From positions 61,504 to 125,503 of the IMG/VR virus record IMGVR_UViG_3300032237_000809: DNA of 64,000 nucleotides. The stretch is one strand, 5' to 3'. How positions within the stretch are numbered: the first letter of the stretch is position 1; each line of letters begins with the position of its first letter. Made by a program: the position numbers and the translations under genes. Positions 3,258 to 62,772 of this stretch are shown here, piece after piece. This stretch comes from a virus (lineage: Duplodnaviria; Caudoviricetes). The notes beneath the pieces are model-generated. The model did no database searches. It saw nothing but the letters and a program-made list of their open reading frames with translations, and was not told the origin of the DNA.

Positions 3258-3659
3258 ATGGAAAATGATCTTCAATTGACGTTAGATTTATTTGAATTTA
3301 CTATGAATAAAAACGAAAATACTGATGTAATTAATTTTACTAAAATTCCTATTAATACTATGAATGAACAAACTAATAAAAACGGATTTTGGAAATACAA
3401 TGAAGAGAAAATCCTGAAACAACTTGAAGAGTATATTGCAGGTACTTATAATCAACACTATGTTGATAGGACTGGTGGTGGTACTGAGCAAACATTGGAT
3501 AAGATTAAGCACAATCGTCGTGAAGGGTTTTGTGCCGGTAATGTGACCAAGTATATTGATCGGTATGATACTAAAGGAACTCCCCGTGCTGATTTGTTCA
3601 AAGTATTGCACTATACTATTCTCTTGATTAATCATCTTAATCTTGTTGAAAACAAATGA
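3258..3659 (+). CDS. Conserved hypothetical phage protein
   Basis: HY...GFCAGNVTKYIDRY...KG...DLFKVLHY pattern; true start may be downstream. Confidence 0.65.
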   Translation: MENDLQLTLDLFEFTMNKNENTDVINFTKIPINTMNEQTNKNGFWKYNEEKILKQLEEYIAGTYNQHYVDRTGGGTEQTLDKIKHNRREGFCAGNVTKYIDRYDTKGTPRADLFKVLHYTILLINHLNLVENK

Positions 3660-4342
3660 AACTGAAACCTAAAATTATGAAACTCTCAGACAATACTTTA
3701 GTTATTCTTAAAAACTTTGCTGGAATTAATAATTCCATTTTGGTAAAAGAAGGTAATCGCCTTCGCACTATTTCCGTAGCAAAAAATATTCTTGCCGAAG
3801 CGGATATTAGTGAAGAGTTTCCTCGTGAATTTGCCATTTATGATCTGAATCAATTTCTGAATGGACTTGGACTTCATCAAGATCCTGATTTGGATTTTGG
3901 TGAAACATCTCATATTACTATCCGTGAAGGTAAGCGTAGAGTAAAGTATTTCTATGCAGATCCTAATGTGATTATTTCTCCTCCTGATAAAGAAATTCAA
4001 CTTCCTTCTAGAGATGTTTGTTTTCATCTGGAAAGTGCTTCTCTTGAAAAACTTGTAAAAGCTGCAGCAGTTTATCAACTTCCGGATTTGTCTGCTGTTG
4101 GTGAAGCAGGTGTAATTCGTCTGGTTGTCCGTGACAAGAAAAACGATACTTCTAATGAATACTCTATTGTAGTTGGTGAAACTGATCAGGAATTCGTTTT
4201 CAATTTTAAAGTTGAAAATATTAAAATTATTCCTGGAGCATACGATGTGGTTGTGTCAAAAAAACTTCTGTCACAGTTCAGCAATAGCAAGTACAATTTG
4301 AAGTATTATATTGCTTTGGAACCTGATTCTACTTTTACTTGA
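3656..4342 (+). CDS. gp45: Sliding clamp
   Basis: MKLSDNT..LKNFAGINNSI, FAIYDLNQFL, C-terminal YYIALEPDS; start may be 3677. Confidence 0.95.
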   Translation: MKLKPKIMKLSDNTLVILKNFAGINNSILVKEGNRLRTISVAKNILAEADISEEFPREFAIYDLNQFLNGLGLHQDPDLDFGETSHITIREGKRRVKYFYADPNVIISPPDKEIQLPSRDVCFHLESASLEKLVKAAAVYQLPDLSAVGEAGVIRLVVRDKKNDTSNEYSIVVGETDQEFVFNFKVENIKIIPGAYDVVVSKKLLSQFSNSKYNLKYYIALEPDSTFT

Positions 4343-51087: not shown

Positions 51088-51753
51088 ATGAATTTTGATA
51101 GTAAATTACTGAATAGAACTGACTTGGAGTTCTGTAGTAATAAAGTTAAAGAATATGGGTATCTTGATAAATTTCCTCACATAAATTGGTCTAGTGATGA
51201 TGCAATTATGAAGTGGGGATTGATTGCTAATTATTTTAAAGAACTTAGTGAAACTGAAAAGAATGTTGTAGATCTCGGATGTTCTAATTCTCCCTTACCC
51301 CATATAATCTCTTCTTTGGGGTATGATGTTACAGCTATTGATATTAGTGATGTCAGTCATTCATTTTCTGGAAGTTTAGTTCGCATGGTTTTGAATGATG
51401 CTCTTGCTGAAGTTAAGGATATGGGAGATAATTCAGTAGATTATTTTTTAGATTCTTGTGCCGTAACACATTTTAATGGATCTCACACTAATAAAATTAA
51501 TAATCAGGGATGGAAAGATATTGCAGAACAAGTTTGTAGAGTTCTGAAACCTGGTGGTAAATTTATTATTGTTTCTGATGTTGACATTAATAATGAATTT
51601 GGTGAGTTTATTAAACCAGAATTGGTTATTAAACTGATTGAATCATCTGGATTAAATCTGATTGGAACTTGTGATTATTCTGAACCAGATCCTTTTACAA
51701 TTCATTGTGGGGAATATACTCTCCAAGTTTCAAATTTTATTTTCGAAAAATGA
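51088..51753 (+). CDS. Class I SAM methyltransferase
   Basis: VVDLGC, VTAIDI, RVLKPGG. Confidence 0.8.
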   Translation: MNFDSKLLNRTDLEFCSNKVKEYGYLDKFPHINWSSDDAIMKWGLIANYFKELSETEKNVVDLGCSNSPLPHIISSLGYDVTAIDISDVSHSFSGSLVRMVLNDALAEVKDMGDNSVDYFLDSCAVTHFNGSHTNKINNQGWKDIAEQVCRVLKPGGKFIIVSDVDINNEFGEFIKPELVIKLIESSGLNLIGTCDYSEPDPFTIHCGEYTLQVSNFIFEK

Positions 51754-52628
51754 ATTTTGCATACTTATTTTCTGGTCAACCAATTTTTTATCAAACAACC
51801 CTTGATTGTTTTTCCAACTATCAGATAGATAAAAATGATAAGGTTTGCTCTCATCTTTGGTGGGACAAATCTTATCATGAAAAAGTTTATAAGTTGTGGT
51901 TTACAGACACCTTTAATAATGAAAATTTAGATGAAGAGTTTATAGAAAGATATATGGTAACTGATTGTATCGTTGAAAAGCACAAAGATTTTGATATTAC
52001 TTTTTTTAAAAAATTTAATTTTGATGTTTGGAAAGGTGAAAGTATAGAGCATTATAAAGTTATTACTCCAATAATTTTATATGGAATATTGAGTCAAACT
52101 TATTCCAACTATCAAACATTTTTGCAAACTAAAAAATATCAAGATATTGATGTTGTTATCAAATCTAGACCAGATGTTATTTTAACTAAACCAATTAAAG
52201 ATATATTATCCCAGGTTACTCTAGAGTCAGATACAATATATTTTCAAAGTTCAATGAATGGTGGTCATTTGTATGCTGGAGAGTTTCCTAATAATCCTTG
52301 CGATTGGTTTTTCTTGGGAAAATCAGAATCTATGGAAAAGTTTTTATCTGGATGGTATGAATTTATTCCAAGTGTTTATGAAAATGGCGTAATTCATGTA
52401 AGAGACTATTGCATAGAAGTTTGCTCTAGGAAAAATTTAAAAATCGGATTGGGCGACTTTGGAGCGATCATATATAAACAAGCAACAGATTGGTATGAGA
52501 AATATAAAATTGATTCCAAATTTTATATTCATAATTTTGACTACGAATCTTGCAAACCTTTACAAGTTAATATGTGGCCAAATTGGGTTGAGCATGTTAA
52601 CTTTGAACATTTTAAAAATATGAAATAA
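51750..52628 (+). CDS. Putative glycan-related protein
   Basis: FSGQP, SRPD, DWFF; paralogous to 46442. Confidence 0.55.
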   Translation: MNFAYLFSGQPIFYQTTLDCFSNYQIDKNDKVCSHLWWDKSYHEKVYKLWFTDTFNNENLDEEFIERYMVTDCIVEKHKDFDITFFKKFNFDVWKGESIEHYKVITPIILYGILSQTYSNYQTFLQTKKYQDIDVVIKSRPDVILTKPIKDILSQVTLESDTIYFQSSMNGGHLYAGEFPNNPCDWFFLGKSESMEKFLSGWYEFIPSVYENGVIHVRDYCIEVCSRKNLKIGLGDFGAIIYKQATDWYEKYKIDSKFYIHNFDYESCKPLQVNMWPNWVEHVNFEHFKNMK

Positions 52629-52629
52629 A

Positions 52630-53202
52630 ATGGCAAAATCATTCAAACAAAAAGCAAAAGAAATCATCCAACATTACAGTTCTACCCCTTGGACTGGTTG
52701 TAGTGATAAAGGATCAGATCATTCTTACGAACTTTTTTATCCGGAAGTATTTGAAAAAATCAAAGATAATAAAGATCTTTGTATCTTGGAAGTGGGAGTA
52801 TCTTCTGGATATAGTCTGAGAATGTGGAGAGATATTTTTTCAGATAAAACTAAAATCTATGGATTTGATAAAGAATATTCGAATCTCCAACTTACAGAAG
52901 AAGAAAGAGGAAGATTTATTTTATTACCAGAAGGATCACAAGATGATTCAAGTTTATTTGAAAACTGCCCACAATTTGATTTAATCATTGATGATGCTTC
53001 TCATGATCCAGGTCTTACACTAAAAACTTGGAACATTCTTAAATCAAAACTTAAACCAGGTGGTTATTATATTATTGAAGATGTTGATGCCAATCCAGGT
53101 TGGCAGAATCAAGAATTTCTTAATACTTTTGAAGTCATTGATTTAAGAGCAAATAAAAATAAATATGACGACATTATCTACCTCTATAAAAATGAAAACT
53201 GA
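52630..53202 (+). CDS. SAM methyltransferase
   Basis: SDK..H.Y, LEVGV..G.SL, DLIIDDASH, GGYYIIED. Confidence 0.8.
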   Translation: MAKSFKQKAKEIIQHYSSTPWTGCSDKGSDHSYELFYPEVFEKIKDNKDLCILEVGVSSGYSLRMWRDIFSDKTKIYGFDKEYSNLQLTEEERGRFILLPEGSQDDSSLFENCPQFDLIIDDASHDPGLTLKTWNILKSKLKPGGYYIIEDVDANPGWQNQEFLNTFEVIDLRANKNKYDDIIYLYKNEN

Positions 53203-53998
53203 TTTTGCAATTGTTACTTCTCTGTATAATGTCCAAGAACTGCAAAGAGATGATAATAGAAGTTGGAAAGATTATCTTGAATGGTTTTCAAAGACACTAC
53301 AAATAAAATGTCCTTTTATTATTTTTACAGAAGAGTCTTTGATTGAAACTATTAAAGAAATTAGACAAGATCTGCCAACTGAAATTATTGTTGAACCTTT
53401 AGAACAAATCCCATATTTTCATTTAAAAGATTCAATTCAAGAAATTATTGATTCTGAATTTTATAAAGAAAATATGGCAGACACGAATAGGGTTGAGTGC
53501 AACTATTCAATGTACCCTATCATTCAATATTCTAAATTTAAGTGGTTGAAAAAAGCATCAGAGATTAATTCCTTCGAATCAAAGTTTTTCTTTTGGTTGG
53601 ATGCTGGTGCAAGTAGATTCTTGTATGATTGTAATCTCGAAAATGATTATCCCAGTGAGGATGCGCTTTTGGAATTGGATCAACTTGACAATACCTTCTT
53701 AATCCAGTATAATACTGAATGTTATCCTGATCTTGTAAATTCTGAAACATTATCTGAAAGTTATTTTTGGGATAATCGTTCTTTTATCTGCGGAAGCATG
53801 TTTGGTGGAAATAAAATTGCCATTGAAAATGTCAGCAATGAAATAGATCATATTTTGGGTTATATGATTGAAAATGAAAATGTAAATAATGAACAGATAG
53901 CAATTGGATATCTCTGCAAAACAAAAGAGAATCTTTTTACTAGGTTTCATCGAGTTAATGGTAAAAATCATCTTTGTTTATTTCAAGAAATGGTATGA
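53192..53998 (+). CDS. HtrL/YibB-like glycosyltransferase
   Basis: YL.WF, Y...QYSK, FWLDAG, GSMFGG, NNEQ. Confidence 0.7.
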   Translation: MKTDFAIVTSLYNVQELQRDDNRSWKDYLEWFSKTLQIKCPFIIFTEESLIETIKEIRQDLPTEIIVEPLEQIPYFHLKDSIQEIIDSEFYKENMADTNRVECNYSMYPIIQYSKFKWLKKASEINSFESKFFFWLDAGASRFLYDCNLENDYPSEDALLELDQLDNTFLIQYNTECYPDLVNSETLSESYFWDNRSFICGSMFGGNKIAIENVSNEIDHILGYMIENENVNNEQIAIGYLCKTKENLFTRFHRVNGKNHLCLFQEMV

Positions 53999-54942
53999 AA
54001 ATATCTTTAATCGGTCCCGGAATTATGCCCATTCCACCTCTTGGTTGGGGTGCAGTAGAAATTCTTATATGGGATACCAAAATTGCTTTGGAATCATTGG
54101 GGCATCAAGTTCAAATTGTGAATACAAAAGATTATAATCAGATTATAGAAGATGTTAATTCCTTTGGATCTGATTTTGTCCATATTCACTATGATGAATT
54201 TATTCCTCTGTATCCTTATATTCAACAACCAAAGGCAATCACGAGTCACTATGGTTACTTAGAAAGACCTGAACTTTTTGGTGGATATGTAAATATTGCT
54301 AATGAGTTCGCTTGTCTTAGACCAAATACTTTTTGTCTATCTGAGGGAATTCGAAATATGTATAAGGTACTATTCAACATTCCTGAAGATAAATTATTTT
54401 TAACCCCAAATGGAGTCAATAGGCAACAATTTAAATTTGTAGATATACCAGAGCATCCAGATCGTTCAATTTATCTTGCAAAGATAGATTACAGGAAGCG
54501 CCAGTTTATGTTTCAGTCAATTTCTAGTCTTTGGTATGCTGGAAATATTGCTGATCCTAGATTTGATACTTCTAAAAATTATTTGGGTGAGTGGGGAAAA
54601 GATACATTATATAATGACTTAACTCAATACGGAAACCTTGTTTTACTCTCAGACGGTGAAGCACATCCACTTGTTTGTATGGAGGCACTCTCTGCTGGAC
54701 TTGGTGTGGTTGTTTGTGAATGGGGAAGAGCAAACTTAGATGTTAATAAAGAATTCATTACAATCATTCCTGAAAACAAAATCTCCGATTTAGAGTATGT
54801 TGAGAATGAAATTATTAAGAATAGAGAATACGCCGTAAATAATAGAAAAGAAATTGTAGAATATTCAAAGAAGTTTGATTGGAAAGAGATACTTCAAAAG
54901 TATTATATTCCTTCGGTTGAAAAAATCATTGCCAATAGTTAA
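53995..54942 (+). CDS. GT4-like glycosyltransferase
   Basis: PIPPLGWGAVE, PNGV, EAHPLVCMEALSAG. Confidence 0.8.
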   Translation: MKISLIGPGIMPIPPLGWGAVEILIWDTKIALESLGHQVQIVNTKDYNQIIEDVNSFGSDFVHIHYDEFIPLYPYIQQPKAITSHYGYLERPELFGGYVNIANEFACLRPNTFCLSEGIRNMYKVLFNIPEDKLFLTPNGVNRQQFKFVDIPEHPDRSIYLAKIDYRKRQFMFQSISSLWYAGNIADPRFDTSKNYLGEWGKDTLYNDLTQYGNLVLLSDGEAHPLVCMEALSAGLGVVVCEWGRANLDVNKEFITIIPENKISDLEYVENEIIKNREYAVNNRKEIVEYSKKFDWKEILQKYYIPSVEKIIANS

Positions 54943-54943
54943 T

Positions 54944-55732
54944 ATGAATAGAAAGATAGCAATCAATTTTATTGGAACTGGAAATTATCTCAAGTTTTTT
55001 CCAAGATATTATGAGACATTGATGGAATATTTTGTTCCAGAATGTCAGAAAGATTTTTTTGTTTTTACTGATGGTGAGTTGGGTGATGATATTCTAGATA
55101 ATATCAAAGTCATATCAGCATCTGAAAATATTGAAATTACTACATCAGATTATTCTTCTGACAATTGGTATAATTTGATGTATAATAGTATTGGCGGATT
55201 GCGAAGATTTGGAGAGATTAAAAAAATTGAAGATCAATTGAAGGATTATGATTGGTACATCTATTTTGATGCTGATATGCATTGCTGTGATCAACTCATT
55301 ACCTATGAGGAATTTTTTAATGATGACAAATCATTCTTTGGAGTTCAGCACCCAACTTACAGTACTCACTGGAGTAAATTTGGTGGACATTTACCTTTTG
55401 AAAGAGATGAAAAATCTTTATCATGTGTGAAAGAAAAGGATGAGATAGATGGTATATATCTTCAGGGATGTATTTGGGGAGGTAAAATTCCAGAGATTTT
55501 TGAATTAATTCATGAACTTGATGAAAGAATTAAAAAAGATTTGGAGAACAATGTTCTCGCAAAAGCCCACGATGAAAGTCATTTAAATAGATATAGAATT
55601 GATAATTTTGAAGATTTTCATATATTACATTCTTGTTTTGCAAAACCTGGGGATTATCCTGATAATGAGTTTGATTTTTCTGCAAGAATGATACACTCTC
55701 CCGCTGATAAAAAAATTATTCTTTATTCTTAG
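54944..55732 (+). CDS. GT6 family glycosyltransferase
   Basis: IGTGNY, FVFTD, FDADM, QHP, QGCIWGG, HDESHLN. Confidence 0.85.
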   Translation: MNRKIAINFIGTGNYLKFFPRYYETLMEYFVPECQKDFFVFTDGELGDDILDNIKVISASENIEITTSDYSSDNWYNLMYNSIGGLRRFGEIKKIEDQLKDYDWYIYFDADMHCCDQLITYEEFFNDDKSFFGVQHPTYSTHWSKFGGHLPFERDEKSLSCVKEKDEIDGIYLQGCIWGGKIPEIFELIHELDERIKKDLENNVLAKAHDESHLNRYRIDNFEDFHILHSCFAKPGDYPDNEFDFSARMIHSPADKKIILYS

Positions 55733-55737
55733 TAAAA

Positions 55738-56520
55738 ATGATTGGATTTAATTATCTTGGACAAAATGGACGTTTAGCGAATCAGATGTTTCAGTATGCT
55801 TCGCTAAGGGGCATTGCTGCGACAAAGGGATATGATTTTTGTATTCCCAAAACGGACTATGGCGATAATTGGAAAGATAATAAACTGTTTGATGTCTTTG
55901 AGATGGGGAGTGTAAAAAATGTTGAATTTATACCGGCAGAATTTTATTCAGAAAAACAATTTCATTATGACCAAGAGTATGTTGATGATTGTCCAGATAA
56001 TGTGAATTTGCATGGATATTTTCAAAGTGAGAAATACTTTAAGCATATTGAAGACAGTATTAGAAAAGATTTTAAATTTAAAGATTATATTCTAGAACCA
56101 TGTGTAAATAATTTTGATTTTGATGATATTATTGCTTTGCATGTAAGAAGAACTGATTATGTTTCTAATTCTGTAAATCATCCCCCATGTGATCTTTCTT
56201 ATTATGAAAAAGCATTAGAGCAATTTGATTCCAATATTCCTGTAATGATTTTTTCTGATGATGTTGGATGGTGTCAATCTCAATCTTTATTTGATTCTGA
56301 TAGATTTATGATTTCTGAATCTCATAATGGATTCATCGATCTATGTCTTATGAGTATGTGTCATTATCATATTATTGCAAATTCTTCATTTTCTTGGTGG
56401 GGTGCGTGGTTGGCAAGGAGTAAAAAAGTTATTGCTCCTTCAAAATGGTTTGGTGTAGAGGGTAACACTGCTAAAAATCAAACACAAGATTTGTATTTGG
56501 ATGGATGGATTAAAATATGA
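55738..56520 (+). CDS. GT11 alpha-1,2-fucosyltransferase-like
   Basis: GRLANQMFQYA, GYFQSEKYF, HVRRTDY, FSDD, NSSFSWWGA. Confidence 0.9.
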   Translation: MIGFNYLGQNGRLANQMFQYASLRGIAATKGYDFCIPKTDYGDNWKDNKLFDVFEMGSVKNVEFIPAEFYSEKQFHYDQEYVDDCPDNVNLHGYFQSEKYFKHIEDSIRKDFKFKDYILEPCVNNFDFDDIIALHVRRTDYVSNSVNHPPCDLSYYEKALEQFDSNIPVMIFSDDVGWCQSQSLFDSDRFMISESHNGFIDLCLMSMCHYHIIANSSFSWWGAWLARSKKVIAPSKWFGVEGNTAKNQTQDLYLDGWIKI

Positions 56521-57362
56521 AAAAAATAGATTTATTAAATTGTACTTTTATAATTCCTATTAGGATTGATTCTAAGGATAGAACAAGAAATATTACTACA
56601 GTTCTTTGTTATCTTCTTAAAACTTTTAATACTAGAGTAATACTAAAAGAAGTTGATGTTAAACCACTTATCGAAGAATGTGTCCTAGGACAAATTAGAG
56701 AATTTCTAGATGAAGATGAAATTAATAACATAACATATGTGTTTGAGCAATCTGACAATCTTGAATTTCATCGAATGAAAATTCTAAATGAAATGTTAAA
56801 TCAGGTAGTTACTGATGTTGTTGTCAATTATGATTGTGATGTTTTATTGAAACCAGAAACATGTGTTGAAGCAATAAATCTTATTTTAAATCAAAATTAT
56901 GATTTAGTTTATCCGTATGGATTTGGGGATTGGCAATATCAAATTTTTACAACTGATGAGATTGTAAGTGATTTTATTAATCATGATTTTGATTTTTCAA
57001 TTTTGGAGAAAAGTTCTGATATTTATAGGTCTGAGTTTGGTCATGTTCAATTCTTTAAAACAAAATCCTATATTAATGGTGGAATGGAAAATGAGAACTT
57101 TATTTCTTGGTCTCCAGAAGATAAGGAAAGATATTTTCGTTTCAAAACTCTTGGATATAATGTTGGGAGGATTGATCAGTCGTATGTATATCATCTAGAA
57201 CATTTTAGAGGATATAATTCTGGTTTTGGTAATCCATATATTGAAAAAAATAATGAATTGTGGAATTATCTTCAAACATTAAATCAAAAACAATTAGAAA
57301 GATATTATCAGTCACAGAAATATCTAAAGAAATATGAATTTTATAATTTAAATAACATGTAA
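56517..57362 (+). CDS. GT2/GT7-like glycosyltransferase
   Basis: IIP, YDCD, GG.NENF..W..ED, HLEH. Confidence 0.75.
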   Translation: MKKIDLLNCTFIIPIRIDSKDRTRNITTVLCYLLKTFNTRVILKEVDVKPLIEECVLGQIREFLDEDEINNITYVFEQSDNLEFHRMKILNEMLNQVVTDVVVNYDCDVLLKPETCVEAINLILNQNYDLVYPYGFGDWQYQIFTTDEIVSDFINHDFDFSILEKSSDIYRSEFGHVQFFKTKSYINGGMENENFISWSPEDKERYFRFKTLGYNVGRIDQSYVYHLEHFRGYNSGFGNPYIEKNNELWNYLQTLNQKQLERYYQSQKYLKKYEFYNLNNM

Positions 57363-57368
57363 TTTGTT

Positions 57369-58163
57369 ATGGACAAAAACAAAGCAATATATAAACTTAA
57401 AGGACTTCCTCCCATCTATTATCTCAATCTGGATGAACAACCAGAAAGAGCACAATATATGGAAGAGCAATTTAAGTATTGGGAGATTGAAGATTATACT
57501 CGTATCTCTGCTTATGATGGTAGGGATGATAGAGACCTTGGAGACATTCTCAAAGGACGTTATCCTGATATGATGTCTTCTGGTGAGGTGGGATGTGTAA
57601 CAACGCACCTGAAGGCACTCAAGCACTTCTTAGAGACTTCTGATTCTCCTTGTGCTTTAATTATGGAAGATGATTGTGATATTTCTACAGTATCGCACTG
57701 GCCTTTTAAATGGAAGGATTTCTTTTGTAAGGTCCCTTATGATTATGATGTAGTTCAACTTGCTATTATCAATCCTGCCCAGGTTCATGTGAAAATGCAT
57801 CGCCGTTTTGTGAATGACTTTTCAACCGCATGTTATTTGATTACAAGACATCACGCAAAGAAACTTATCAATCTTCATGTTCGTGGTGATAAGTATAAGT
57901 TGGATAATGGAGTCAAACCTCGTGCTGTTGCAGATGACCTGATTTATAACTCCGGTAATACTTTTTCAATTCCTTTATTTCTTTATAAGATTGAATTGGG
58001 ATCTTCTATTCACAATGACCATGTAGATGTATTTCATAAGTCTAGTTATGATGGTTTGTGGAATTTCTGGAAAGTCGATGCAACGAATGTAAGTGACTGG
58101 AATTCTATATTTGACTATGATCCATACTTTGGAACTTTACCTCCAGGGTTTGAGGGAAAATAA
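57369..58163 (+). CDS. GT25 family glycosyltransferase
   Basis: YLNLD...R, RISAYDG, GEVGC..H, IMEDD. Confidence 0.8.
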   Translation: MDKNKAIYKLKGLPPIYYLNLDEQPERAQYMEEQFKYWEIEDYTRISAYDGRDDRDLGDILKGRYPDMMSSGEVGCVTTHLKALKHFLETSDSPCALIMEDDCDISTVSHWPFKWKDFFCKVPYDYDVVQLAIINPAQVHVKMHRRFVNDFSTACYLITRHHAKKLINLHVRGDKYKLDNGVKPRAVADDLIYNSGNTFSIPLFLYKIELGSSIHNDHVDVFHKSSYDGLWNFWKVDATNVSDWNSIFDYDPYFGTLPPGFEGK

Positions 58164-59393: not shown

Positions 59394-59427
59394 ATACATA
59401 TGGAAGTCAGGAAATCCGGACATTCAG

Positions 59428-59500
59428 GTGCTTACCGAGACTTTGCACTATAAATACGTCTCTCATATCTTCTCTAGGGGTGAGAAGAAATACTAAACAC
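59428..59500 (+). ncRNA. PhotoRC-II-like psbA leader RNA (tentative)
   Basis: GTGC/GCAC hairpin whose loop GAGAC can pair with downstream GTCTC; second hairpin; position in psbA 5' UTR. Confidence 0.55.
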
Positions 59501-59539
59501 GTTCGTCCCTACGAACTTTTTCTACCCTTTTTTTCAAAT

Positions 59540-60095
59540 ATGACTGCTACAATTGCTACACGTTCACAAAGTAATGTCTGGAATGACTTTTGTTCCTGGG
59601 TTACTTCTACGAACAATCGTTTATATGTGGGATGGTTTGGAGTATTACTTATTCCAACAGTTTTAACCGCCACTATTTGTTTTATTCTTGCTTTTATTGC
59701 TGCACCACCAACAGACCTAGACGGAATTAGGGAGGCGGTATCTGGTTCCTTAATGTATGGAAATAACATAATTTCCGGTTCAGTGATTCCGAGTTCAAAT
59801 GCTATAGGTTTGCATCTGTACCCGATTTGGGAAGCACAAACTCTAGAAGAATGGTTATACAATGGAGGTGAATATCAACTCATTGTTTTCCATTTTATGA
59901 TTGCCATCTATGCATATATGGGTCGTGAATGGGAACTTTCATATAGGTTATCAATGCGTCCTTGGATTTGTGTTGCCTACAGTGCTCCTGTTGCTGCTGC
60001 TACTGCTATTTTCCTCGCTTATCCAATTTCACAAGGTTCATTTTCTGATGGATTTCCTTTGGGAATTTCGGGTCAATTTAATTTTATGTTAGTGT
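59540..60095 (+). CDS. psbA: Photosystem II D1, exon 1 (aa 1-185 + 1 nt)
   Basis: [23 protein letters not shown]; exons 556+436+16+72 = 1080 nt = 359 aa + stop. Confidence 0.95.
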
Positions 60096-60976
60096 CAGTT
60101 TGAGGCACTCCTGGAAAGTAATTTCCTTGGCTAAACAGGGTGAACTGCTGGAACCCTAAGTTATATTGCATTCCTTCAATATTGTGCTAGTATAAATAAA
60201 AATAAGTTAGCATAATGTTAAATGAGTAAACCACTTTCTTTTGAACATATTCAAAATATTGCCGAATCTAGAAATCATAAATTAATTTCTATGGACGGAT
60301 ATACTTGCGTTAAAAGTAAAATAAAGTTTTTTTGTTTTACTTGCAATAATGAATTTGAAACATCTTTAGCGTCTTATAAAAACTCACCTAAAACAGGTTG
60401 CCCACATTGCAAAAAGAAAAGAATTTCTGAATTGCATACTAATAAACTGGTTTCTTCGCAAACTAGACAAAAATTAAGTAAAAAGGCAACTGGACGAAAA
60501 GGTTCTTTAAAGGGTGTATATGGAAAAAACCATCCATCCTTCAAAGGAACACCAAGTAGAGATTTTCATAATCCCTCAACGGATTATTATATTTGGATAA
60601 ACGCCGTTAGGGAAAGAGTTGGGCGTTATTGTTGCGTCACCGGGTCTAAAAAAGATTTAGTAGTCCACCATTTATATGGTTGGAACGCATATCCAGATTT
60701 AAGATATAATATTACTAATGGAATTGTTTTAACAAAGCAAATTCATAAAGAATTTCACGATAAATATGGGTACGGTAATAATACAAAAGAACAATTTATT
60801 CAATTTTTGAAAGATCAGTATAATATGGAAATCAGCATCCAAGTTGGAGGTACACCTCCAAAAGGTTCAGAGACTACTGGAGAGGTTTAGTCCTCTTAAT
60901 AACCAGAATAAGCGCCCTGCCCCCATTATGGGGTGATGATATAGTCCACTCCCTTACGAAAGTCTGGGGTAAAGTG
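60096..60976 (+). mobile_element. Group I intron 1 (881 nt) with HNH ORF
   Basis: P1 AGUGU/GCACU with U.G at splice site; P GAACTGCTGGAA, Q AATCAGCATCC, R GTTCAGAGACTA, S ATGATATAGTCC; terminal G; splicing restores V-F186-Q. Confidence 0.92.
60222..60890 (+). CDS. Intron-encoded HNH homing endonuclease
   Basis: CxxC pairs; VHHL...NGIVL...H..FH..YG; TATAAATA at 60191-60198. Confidence 0.88.
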   Translation: MSKPLSFEHIQNIAESRNHKLISMDGYTCVKSKIKFFCFTCNNEFETSLASYKNSPKTGCPHCKKKRISELHTNKLVSSQTRQKLSKKATGRKGSLKGVYGKNHPSFKGTPSRDFHNPSTDYYIWINAVRERVGRYCCVTGSKKDLVVHHLYGWNAYPDLRYNITNGIVLTKQIHKEFHDKYGYGNNTKEQFIQFLKDQYNMEISIQVGGTPPKGSETTGEV

Positions 60977-61412
60977 TTCAGGCTGAACATAATATTCTAA
61001 TGAATCCGTTTCATATGTTGGGAGTTGCTGGCGTATTTGGTGGTGCATTAATCAGTGCAACTCATGGCTCACTTGTAACATCTTCAATTGTTCGTGAAAC
61101 AACGGAAAATGAATCTCAAAATTATGGATATAAATTTGGACAAGAAGAAGAGACCTATTCGTTGGTAGCCGCACACGGGTATCTGGGCCGTCTTCTGTTC
61201 CAATACGCATCCTTTAACAATAGCCGTTCATTACACTTTGTAATGGCTGCACTACCTGTTATTGGTATTTGGTTTGCCGCTTGTGGTATCTTTATGTCTG
61301 GTTTTAATTTGAATGGATTTAATTTCGTTCAGAGTGTTCAAGACTCACAGGGGCATCCTATTCCCACTTGGGCGGACGTATTGAACCGTGCTGGACTGGG
61401 AATGGAAGTGAT
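60977..61412 (+). CDS. psbA: D1 exon 2 (aa 186-331)
   Basis: [31 protein letters not shown]. Confidence 0.95.
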
Positions 61413-61666
61413 TTCCTAAATGTAGTCACCCTGGAATAGGAATATTCCTTGACGAAACTGGGTTAAACGGGGAAACTCTCAAGTAGACAATCCCGTACCA
61501 ATCCGAAGAGGACATAGGTTCTTCGGCAGGTCTAACGACTAGGTAGTGAGTTCCAACAATAATCTACCCACGAATGCCCAGCATCCAGAACGGATGAAGA
61601 GATAGTCTGGACTTACTAGCGATAGTAAGAAGTAAGAAATAAAGAGTTCTTACGATAACAACAACG
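61413..61666 (+). mobile_element. Group I intron 2 (254 nt, no ORF)
   Basis: P1 GUGAU/GUCAC; R-like AACGACTA, S GAAGAGATAGTC; terminal G; restores AT|G (M331). Confidence 0.92.
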
Positions 61667-61682
61667 GCATGAACGCAACGCT
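61667..61682 (+). CDS. psbA: D1 exon 3, 16-nt micro-exon ((M)HERNA)
   Basis: G CAT GAA CGC AAC GCT. Confidence 0.92.
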
Positions 61683-61940
61683 AGATTTGTTGGTGTTGGT
61701 ATTCAGTAATGAATATAAGTAAAATCGGGTTAAACGGGGAAACTCTCAAGTAGACAATCCCGTACCAAGTCAGAAAGGGTTAAAGTTTTCTGAAAGGTCT
61801 AACGACTAGGTAGTGAGTCCCAACAATAATCTACCCACGAATGCCCGACTCCTTAATAAACTTTAAGGATGAAGAGATAGTCTGAACTTATTGGCGACAG
61901 TAAGAAGTAAGAAATAAAGAGTTCTTACGATAACATATTG
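61683..61940 (+). mobile_element. Group I intron 3 (258 nt, no ORF)
   Basis: P1 CAACGCU/GGUGUUG; core near-identical to intron 2; terminal G. Confidence 0.92.
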
Positions 61941-62012
61941 CACAATTTCCCTCTTGACCTTGCTAGCGTAGAAGCAACTCCTGTTGCTCTAACAGCACCG
62001 TCAATCGGTTGA
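61941..62012 (+). CDS. psbA: D1 exon 4
   Basis: HNFPLDLA SVEATPVALTAPSIG*. Confidence 0.95.
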   Translation, partial: HNFPLDLASVEATPVALTAPSIG

Positions 62013-62040
62013 TATAACAACTAAATAATGATATAATGTT

Positions 62041-62069
62041 AAGGAAACTCTCACGAGTTTCCTTTTTTT
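62041..62069 (+). terminator. psbA terminator
   Basis: AAGGAAACTC-TCAC-GAGTTTCCTT followed by T-run. Confidence 0.8.
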
Positions 62070-62079
62070 ATAAATAGTA

Positions 62080-62772
62080 ATGGAAACTTATGAGAGTTTT
62101 ATGAAGGGAACTTATACCGCTAATGACCTAAAAGAACTCTGTGAAAATAGAGGTTTGGAATATATTGGAGAAATAAGAACACATACTAAAAGAGAAAAAA
62201 TAAAGGTATATTGTGAATGTTCTGGAGAACGAGAAGTATTAGTTTCTGGATTGAAGCATAGTAATTATTGTTGTCGTAGGAGAGCGAAACTTGGAGAAAA
62301 TAATCCTGCCCATCAAAAAGCACCCTGGAATAAAGGTAAAAAGTGTCCTGGAATTGGTGGGAGACCTGAAGGAGTGAAAAACTCCAAACCATATAGTCAA
62401 GAAACATTAGAAAAGTATTCCCAAGCAAGAAAAAGAATAACTAAAAACGGACAATCTTGGTCTGGATTTCAAAGACCTCAAGATGAAAATAGACCTGATA
62501 AACTTTATTTTATAAAACTCTATAATGGTAAGTATAAGGTCGGTAGGTCTTATAAAGGTTGGTTATATCGCAAGAAAGAAACTGCCGAACTTCTTGGTGA
62601 GTGGTCTGGAAAATCTATAGATATTTGGAACTTGGAAAGGAAAGTTCTAAATGAGTTTTCTTCTTATAAAGCACAACTAACCGAAATGAGTATGGGTCGT
62701 GGAATGACCGAACATTTTATAGATACTTTACCAATTCAAGAAGTAATTTCCTTTATAGAAAAATGCTCATAA
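62080..62772 (+). CDS. Free-standing GIY-YIG-superfamily (T5orf172-like) endonuclease
   Basis: Cys cluster, GENNP..PWNKG; KLYFI...YKVGRS...R...LE...GMTEHF; TATAAATA at 62069-62076; start may be 62101. Confidence 0.65.
   Translation: METYESFMKGTYTANDLKELCENRGLEYIGEIRTHTKREKIKVYCECSGEREVLVSGLKHSNYCCRRRAKLGENNPAHQKAPWNKGKKCPGIGGRPEGVKNSKPYSQETLEKYSQARKRITKNGQSWSGFQRPQDENRPDKLYFIKLYNGKYKVGRSYKGWLYRKKETAELLGEWSGKSIDIWNLERKVLNEFSSYKAQLTEMSMGRGMTEHFIDTLPIQEVISFIEKCS

What the first reader, a model, noticed from the sequence alone, without database searches (positions are those of the whole stretch)
61413..61940. Twin ORF-less group I introns flanking a 16-nt micro-exon that encodes Mn-cluster ligands
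Seen: introns 2 and 3 share identical blocks (61460-61501 = 61727-61768, 42 nt; 61624-61660 = 61899-61935, 37 nt) but have different P1 guides matched to their own exon ends. Compensatory changes occur in P3 (CTGGG/CCCAG versus TCGGG/CCCGA) and P9 (CTA-GCGA-TAG versus TTG-GCGA-CAG). The exon between them supplies H332 and E333. Inference: an intron duplicated or transposed 16 nt away and was retargeted, or the twins are homogenised by gene conversion. Skipping the exon would frameshift the D1 C-terminus, so splicing order could gate active D1.
Basis: partly seen in the sequence, partly recalled or inferred. Interest (0 to 1): 0.85.

Follow-up and report, generated by a model that had tools for sequence, protein, structure and literature searches.

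The report
Travelling twin-intron cassette in phage psbA
A freshwater cyanobacterial virus carries a photosystem II gene whose 3' end holds two related self-splicing-type introns only 16 bases apart; they are two widespread intron lineages that most likely ride, as one block, with the DNA-cutting gene next door, a new variant of known phage "collaborative homing" rather than a fresh duplication or a proven regulatory switch.

Summary
Observation confirmed: two ORF-less group I (IA2-like) introns, 61413-61666 and 61683-61940, sit after psbA CDS nt 992 and 1008. The 16-nt exon between them encodes H332-A336; splicing restores a 359-aa D1. Independent assemblies show the same twin. The duplication/gene-conversion reading fails for this genome: each intron belongs to its own site-specific lineage (up to 99% and 93% identical to copies in other phages), the twins are no more alike than random cross-genome pairs, and the 42-nt block is conserved core, close even to the T4 td intron. 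Best explanation: collaborative homing. A free-standing T5orf172-type (GIY-YIG) nuclease gene follows psbA in 40/61 intron-bearing versus 0/59 intronless alleles; the one intronless neighbour has the site recoded (M331Q); and a recombination breakpoint about 12 nt before intron 2 shows the block was imported. Cleavage and splicing are inferred, not shown. Twin IA2 introns around a micro-exon are known (phage Twort orf142, with exon skipping); here distinct guides and P3 predict exon inclusion. Gating by splicing order is unsupported. The scan already noted 16-nt psbA micro-exons on other genomes.

The parts
59415..59501 (+). PhotoRC-II RNA motif in the psbA leader
   Evidence: Rfam RF01717, 51.7 bits, gathering 39
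59540..60095 (+). psbA exon 1 (CDS 1-556)
60096..60976 (+). psbA intron 1, group I, site 556, 881 nt, different family, with an HNH ORF at 60222-60890
60977..61412 (+). psbA exon 2 (CDS 557-992)
61398..61402 (+). approximate recombination breakpoint (CDS 976-982): upstream matches this phage's own divergent D1 clade, downstream matches canonical-D1 phage L119
   Evidence: 14/14, 11/11, 10/10 informative sites; permutation p 0.001-0.008
61413..61666 (+). intron 2: ORF-less group I intron, site-992 lineage; P10 guide 61420-61423, P1 guide 61425-61429
61667..61682 (+). 16-nt exon 3: last base of M331, H332, E333, R334, N335, A336; bases 1-4 pair in P10 of intron 2, bases 10-16 in P1 of intron 3; contains the S-PM2 intron site (CDS 1002)
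61683..61940 (+). intron 3: ORF-less group I intron, site-1008 lineage; P10 guide 61687-61690, P1 guide 61692-61698; carries the P2 variant seen only in twin loci
61941..62013 (+). psbA exon 4 (H337 to stop; D342, A344)
62041..62100 (+). psbA terminator hairpin (62041-62064, then a U run), T4-type late promoter (62069-62076) and an alternative hairpin that would cover the nuclease start in read-through RNA
   Evidence: sequence; inverted repeat I7; fold z = -4.1
62080..62772 (+). free-standing putative homing endonuclease, 230 aa: N-terminal Cys-rich (Zn-finger-like) module, C-terminal T5orf172-type GIY-YIG domain
   Evidence: PHROG 681 endonuclease, E 2.7e-7; alignment; model pLDDT 84; Foldseek hits to T5orf172/CapR-homology phage proteins

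Best explanation
Two old, site-specific lineages of one IA2-like intron family (sites 992 and 1008) have been stacked in the most conserved stretch of cyanophage psbA and now travel together by collaborative homing. The nuclease gene behind psbA is made late in infection, cuts the uninterrupted M331-N338 coding stretch of a co-infecting phage's psbA, and repair copies the donor block (end of exon 2, both introns, micro-exon, exon 4, terminator, nuclease gene). The introns break up the target in the donor and so protect it; they need no ORF of their own. On the RNA each intron folds and splices on its own: its guide fits only its own exon ends, the 16-nt exon holds P10 of intron 2 and P1 of intron 3 without overlap, and the P3 swap penalises a hybrid ribozyme, so the main product is exon-included, full-length D1 mRNA, with skipping a minor by-product at most. 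SHOWN: anatomy, conserved structure, lineage identity, recurrence of the twin, nuclease association, recombination breakpoint. INFERRED: self-splicing, nuclease activity and its target, self-immunity, splicing outcome.
For: Spliced D1 is intact with all Mn ligands. 98.6% of cells pair and 25 of 51 pairs show two-sided changes across 38 family members, against at most 4 in slid controls. Guides co-vary with synonymous exon codons. Separate lineages. Nuclease of this type downstream in 40/61 alleles with an intron at CDS 989-1021 and 0/59 without (not corrected for relatedness). Picked by the nuclease instead, about 15 distinct loci all have an intron at 992, 1002, 1008 or 1011, from several intron families, against 11/80 in a psbA-picked sample; the one intronless neighbour, L190, has M331 recoded to Q exactly at site 992. 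Breakpoint 10-16 nt before intron 2; this window and L119 share micro-exon, intron-3 5' end, terminator and a 90% identical nuclease although their D1 proteins belong to different clades. Late promoter plus start-covering hairpin, as I recall from T4 homing endonuclease genes. T5orf172 genes are described as homing endonuclease genes, one in a collaborative arrangement at ICP1 terL (PMC10448857). Cognate versus cross duplexes: P1 of intron 3 -8.0 versus +1.4, P3 -10.3/-9.9 versus -6.9/-6.5 kcal/mol; differentiated cores and splice sites suppress skipping in engineered tandem introns (PMC10136302).
Against: The nuclease has no Pfam hit above threshold and only weak PDB matches (Slx1, Z 4.7). 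Association can arise from linkage, and the two samples were picked differently. 15 of 50 family alleles have F-CphI-type, other or no nuclease, so the partnership is not exclusive. One intron would suffice for protection, so the second is probably a passenger. In simple folding, P1 of intron 2 is out-competed by a local hairpin. P7 is identical in the two introns, so a hybrid ribozyme is not excluded.
Confidence: 0.75

Rival explanations
1. Local duplication or transposition in this phage lineage, or ongoing gene conversion between the two neighbours, made the twins alike.
For: Long exact blocks; summed exact blocks of 148 nt are reached by only 23/625 cross-genome pairs. Helix modules have been exchanged between the lineages somewhere in the population: L142 (1008) and L119 (992) share a P6/P6a variant; L123, L124, L134 (1008) carry the 992-type P8.
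Against: Each twin is nearest to introns at its own site in other phages; twin identity is ordinary; the L119 twins are less alike than average (79.9%). The 42-nt block is in 16/19 site-992 and 8/33 site-1008 introns and matches the T4 td intron at 89-97% over 33-45 nt.
Confidence: 0.08
2. The pair is a regulatory device: splicing order or exon skipping gates active D1, for example by light.
For: All unspliced, half-spliced and skipped RNAs lack Mn ligands. Light changes the spliced fraction of the single S-PM2 psbA intron (PMC5931967). A competing helix between the tail of intron 2 plus micro-exon and the guide of intron 3 lowers predicted P1 of intron 3 to 0.68, rising to 0.99 after intron 2 is removed, which hints at an order 2 then 3. 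Skipping occurs in Twort orf142 and phage SIOphi.
Against: The twin is rare; relatives have no intron, one, or unrelated pairs spaced 16, 19 or 29 nt, as expected from piling up at a nuclease target. Order does not change the final product. No expression data.
Confidence: 0.1
3. The introns spread without this nuclease (plain recombination, reverse splicing, or other enzymes such as F-CphI); the neighbour gene only hitchhikes.
For: Tight linkage; some family alleles sit by F-CphI-like, GIY-YIG or no nuclease genes; phage psbA recombines freely (known).
Against: The same nuclease domain occurs with four intron sites and several intron families but not with an intact target; the recoded allele L190; breakpoint hugging the intron site. 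Reverse-splicing mobility lacks direct evidence (PMC3984707).
Confidence: 0.15
4. Assembly artefact from a repeat.
For: Direct repeats 267-275 nt apart; no raw reads seen.
Against: Copies are only 79% alike with exact blocks of at most 42 nt; both junction sets are precise; independent assemblies and three other phages show the twin.
Confidence: 0.01

Closest known systems
Cyanophage S-PM2 psbA group I intron with free-standing F-CphI (collaborative homing; described in PMC6083498 and PMC5931967)
   Same: ORF-less group I intron in the 3' end of phage psbA, free-standing nuclease gene directly behind psbA, intron expected to protect the donor.
   Different: S-PM2 has one 212-nt intron at CDS 1002, inside our micro-exon, only about 60% alike by global alignment; F-CphI is an Endo VII-type enzyme, ours is T5orf172-type GIY-YIG; here two introns move in one block.
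Staphylococcus phage Twort orf142 introns 2 and 3 (Landthaler and Shub 1999, as described in PMC10136302 and PMC11878797)
   Same: Two highly similar IA2 introns around a very short exon (23 nt) in a phage gene.
   Different: Skipping was observed there; here it is untested and predicted to be disfavoured. Exon is 16 nt, in a photosynthesis gene, and both lineages also occur alone in many phages.
ICP1 terL intron with adjacent T5orf172 homing endonuclease gene (PMC10448857)
   Same: T5orf172 nuclease with Zn-finger-like, swappable N-terminal modules, outside the intron it is thought to mobilise.
   Different: Vibrio phage terminase gene, single intron.
S-CBWM1 and S-SRM01 psbA
   Same: Cyanophage psbA with several group I introns; S-SRM01 has the same gene order psbA, nuclease, metallophosphoesterase.
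   Different: Sites 649+1011 and 276+750+1002; other intron families; no micro-exon.
T4 td intron (group IA2)
   Same: P3-P4-P5 segment 89-97% identical over 33-45 nt; extra helix between P7 and P3.
   Different: td encodes its own endonuclease, I-TevI (known); ours have no ORF.

Membership tests
Group I intron | U-G pair at the 5' splice site in P1 and terminal G | tested here: met
Group I intron | P3-P7 core with conserved G-binding pair, P4-P6 domain, supported by covariation | tested here: met
   98.6% paired, 25/51 pairs compensatory; first P7 pair G-C in 38/38
Group I intron | Rfam RF00028 above gathering score | tested here: met
   53.2 and 63.5 bits against 50
Group I intron | Precise removal restores the host reading frame | tested here: met
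   359-aa D1 with all ligands
Group I intron | GTP-dependent self-splicing | not testable with these tools
Subgroup IA2 | Extra helix P7.1 between P7 and P3, short P5, likeness to T4 td | tested here: met
   (helix 7)
Subgroup IA2 | Second helix P7.2 and assignment by subgroup-specific models | tested here: inconclusive
   only P7.1 is evident; no subgroup models on hand
Collaborative homing pair | ORF-less intron with a free-standing nuclease gene beside the host gene | tested here: met
Collaborative homing pair | Nuclease not found beside an intact target; co-inheritance and co-conversion tract | tested here: met
Collaborative homing pair | Nuclease cuts the intronless allele at or near the insertion site and spares the intron-containing one | not testable with these tools
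   needs a cleavage assay
T5orf172 / GIY-YIG nuclease | Fold and conserved Tyr, Lys-x-Gly, Arg and Glu of the catalytic domain | tested here: met
   invariant Y, K, G, R, E; Foldseek probability 1.0, TM 0.6-0.77 to T5orf172 phage proteins
T5orf172 / GIY-YIG nuclease | Pfam PF10544 at threshold | tested here: inconclusive
   no hit for this protein; one relative at E 0.058
S-PM2 psbA intron family | Site 1002, about 212 nt, F-CphI partner | tested here: not met
   sites 992 and 1008, 254 and 258 nt, about 60% identity
Twort orf142-type skipping twin | Two similar IA2 introns around a short exon | tested here: met
Twort orf142-type skipping twin | Exon-skipped RNA detected | not testable with these tools
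   energies predict it is disfavoured
Recent tandem duplicate / converted pair | The two copies are each other's closest relatives or more alike than cross-genome pairs | tested here: not met

The most novel reading that the evidence does not exclude
Selection has tuned the second intron for life in tandem, a natural version of engineered orthogonal ribozyme pairs. All five site-1008 introns found behind a same-family intron (window, L119, L004, L205, L233) carry an A/U-rich P2 absent from about 30 solo copies, and two (L004, L205) have P3, P4 and even P7 recoded by compensatory changes, a form seen only in twins. This would block hybrid ribozymes and skipping of the Mn-ligand exon, and might set an order of splicing. 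Shared descent explains the pattern equally well, and swap folding supported it in three of five cases only.
Probability: 0.2. Interest if true: 0.7.

Novelty: new variant of a known kind. Interest (0 to 1): 0.45.

Why it matters
It extends collaborative homing from one tested cyanophage case to a whole freshwater system with a different nuclease family, several interchangeable protective introns and a recoded-target escape allele, and it gives a sharp, cheap test (cut intronless, intron-bearing and M331Q duplexes). The twin is also a natural test bed for exon inclusion versus skipping by tandem group I ribozymes, known so far from few examples. In practice, gene callers truncate these psbA genes before the Mn ligands, so freshwater viral D1 genes are mis-scored as broken. 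It does not reveal a new kind of element, and I found no sign that it regulates photosynthesis. I found no paper on these sites in the held library, which lacks most subscription journals (Millard 2004 and 2010, Landthaler 1999 could not be read).

Tried and rejected
No other group I intron copy in the 125.5-kb contig. No cultured phage in INPHARED holds either intron beyond short core matches. GTDB scan gave a single 1.3-kb contig in an unrelated MAG, not examined and probably stray phage DNA; no host psbA copy. Gene conversion tested by identity distribution, exact-block counts and tree: rejected as the cause. The idea that the nuclease N-terminal module dictates the intron site: not clean, since an HTH-type enzyme sits with a 1008-only allele (L195) and Zn-type with 992-only alleles. 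The idea that the twin-type P2 avoids mispairing with the micro-exon: helped in window, L119, L205, not in L233 or L004. Pfam blank for the nuclease; PDB fold search only weak (Z at most 4.7). No 992-type P3 joined to a 1008-type P6a (the deletion product of recombination between twins) among 53 introns. Searches for a paper on the atypical viral D1 gave none. PMC22036, PMC503734 and the Millard 2010 DOI were not held.

Full report
Setting. The window is the last 64 kb of a 125.5-kb, 32.5% GC contig of a T4-like cyanophage: high-light-inducible genes, a PhotoRC-II leader, psbA, a nuclease gene and a metallophosphoesterase, the order seen in the freshwater phage S-SRM01.

Observation. psbA has four exons (59540-60095, 60977-61412, 61667-61682, 61941-62013) and three introns after CDS nt 556, 992 and 1008. 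Joining them gives a 359-aa D1 with D61, Y161, D170, E189, H190, H332, E333, H337, D342 and A344; a profile-based spliced aligner found the same junctions and numbering matches solved D1 chains. Introns 2 and 3 have no ORF, pass the Rfam group I threshold, are about 79% identical and share the exact 42- and 37-nt blocks reported. Skipping the 16-nt exon frameshifts after V330; keeping either intron gives an early stop. The twin is real: an ENA scaffold differs at only 6 of 3832 positions, one in intron 2 that turns a C-G pair of P6a into U-G, and IMG/VR and JGI contigs L119, L205 and L233 have the same 992+1008 pair.

The introns are under selection as ribozymes. Across 38 family members 98.6% of cells pair and 25 of 51 pairs change on both sides, in P3, P4, P6, P6a, P7, P7.1, P9 and P9.1; slid controls give at most 4 (relatedness inflates the counts). 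P10 and P1 guides follow synonymous changes in the exons. A helix between P7 and P3 and 89-97% matches to the T4 td intron over the P3-P5 stretch place them with subgroup IA2.

Origin of the twin. Scans of IMG/VR gave 53 distinct family members: 19 at site 992, 33 at 1008, one at 989. Most are alone. Intron 2 is 99.2% identical to the 992 intron of L008, intron 3 93.4% to the solo L012. All 992 introns lie on one side of a 100/99 branch (unrooted, so direction is not shown). Twin core identity (84.7%; 79.9% in L119) is inside the spread of 627 pairs, 82.7 +/- 2.8%; 47 of 625 cross-genome pairs share blocks as long, though summed exact blocks are in the top 4%. So one ancestral retargeting made two lineages long ago, modules have since been swapped between them in the population, and this gene holds one of each. 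The region is a hot spot: sites 989, 992, 1002 (S-PM2, S-SRM01), 1008, 1011 (S-CBWM1) and 1021. About half of the metagenomic 992 carriers have a second intron 16-29 nt on, usually of another family, and L161 has nine psbA introns with a 14-nt exon. A 16-nt exon is therefore ordinary here; a same-family pair is the rarer case.

How ORF-less introns move. The ORF at 62080-62772 has a Cys-rich N-terminal module and a C-terminal domain that folds like phage T5orf172 proteins, a GIY-YIG subfamily described as homing endonucleases with swappable Zn-finger modules (PMC10448857). It has a late promoter and a hairpin that would hide its start in psbA read-through RNA. Such a gene follows 40 of 61 intron-bearing and 0 of 59 intronless alleles. 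Choosing loci by the nuclease, every one with a visible target has an intron at 992, 1002, 1008 or 1011 except L190, where M331 is recoded to Q at the 992 site; L167 has both an intron and a recoded site. Nuclease clades track intron content: 22 rows with 1008 alone, a 992 clade, and this window with L119 as a 90%-identical pair. Finally, this psbA is a mosaic: it belongs to a divergent D1 clade, but from CDS 976-982 on it matches canonical-D1 phage L119 at every informative site against three clade relatives (one comparison, with L011, put the best break elsewhere). The block from about 61400 to 62772 was thus exchanged as a unit, starting 10-16 nt before intron 2, as homing would leave it. 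This is the S-PM2 / F-CphI logic (PMC6083498, PMC5931967) with another enzyme family and two introns. Cleavage is inferred.

Splicing outcome. In the micro-exon, P10 of intron 2 uses bases 1-4 and P1 of intron 3 bases 10-16, so both can form. Engineered tandem introns skip the exon by a hybrid ribozyme or by the second intron using the upstream splice site, and differentiating cores and splice sites suppresses this (PMC10136302). Here cross-pairings are weaker: guide of intron 3 on exon 2, +1.4 versus -8.0 kcal/mol; hybrid P3, -6.9 versus -10.3. I expect exon inclusion to dominate. P7 is shared, so some skipping is possible, as in Twort orf142 (23-nt exon) and SIOphi. A competing helix lowers P1 of intron 3 to 0.68 until intron 2 is gone, a weak hint of order, not of regulation.

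Unexplained. Twin-resident 1008 introns have their own P2 (5 of 5, none of about 30 solo), and L004 and L205 have recoded P3, P4 and P7, found only in twins. Either descent from one haplotype or selection against cross-folding.

Verdict. Real, correctly described, and a new variant of two known things: collaborative homing at cyanophage psbA and twin IA2 introns around a micro-exon. The local duplication or conversion story is not supported; gating is unshown. Interest 0.45.

Noticed in passing
window 59540-62013: The D1 is about 80% identical to ordinary phage D1 and belongs to a small divergent clade (L011, L037, L170-L172, L004/L036) with changes at near-invariant positions: P66A, F93L, P111E, M172F, T179Q, H195N, M214T, F255L, F274V, L288C, S291F, T292M, while all Mn ligands are kept. 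No paper found.
   Followed up: partly
window 60096-60976: Group I intron at psbA site 556 with a 222-aa HNH ORF; seen mostly in the divergent D1 clade (L004, L170-L172) and as a 226-nt ORF-less form in L161.
   Followed up: partly
L161:6832-11191: psbA with nine group I-type introns (sites 179, 317, 499, 556, 570, 645, 890, 992, 1011), including 14-nt and 19-nt exons.
   Followed up: no
L190, psbA codon 331: Intronless psbA beside the nuclease, with M331Q (and other unusual residues): a likely recoded, nuclease-resistant target. L167 has V330I/M331I; L008 and L017 have M331I.
   Followed up: partly
L004:8409-8665 (-) and L205:234-455: Site-1008 introns with compensatory recoding of P3, P4, P6a and P7, G-binding pair kept; seen only behind a same-family intron.
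   Followed up: partly
L123, L124, L125, L134 site-1008 introns: Carry the 992-type short P8 together with the 992-type P2 tetraloop, suggesting co-variation of the L2-P8 tertiary contact.
   Followed up: no
all loci, psbA CDS: At least 18 intron sites in freshwater phage psbA (179, 230, 276, 317, 499, 548, 556, 570, 645, 649, 750, 890, 989, 992, 1002, 1008, 1011, 1021); from memory several match chloroplast psbA intron sites, not checked.
   Followed up: no
window 61403-61416: The end of exon 2 can pair with the first bases of intron 2, putting the 5' splice site in a hairpin loop that competes with P1 in simple folding; these first bases vary among 992 introns.
   Followed up: partly
L118 (S-SRM01, MW015081) 3440-4107: The GenBank record lacks the last two psbA exons; two further introns map to sites 750 and 1002.
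   Followed up: no
window 51705-58163: Run of glycosyltransferase- and methyltransferase-like genes upstream of the hli/psbA cluster.
   Followed up: no
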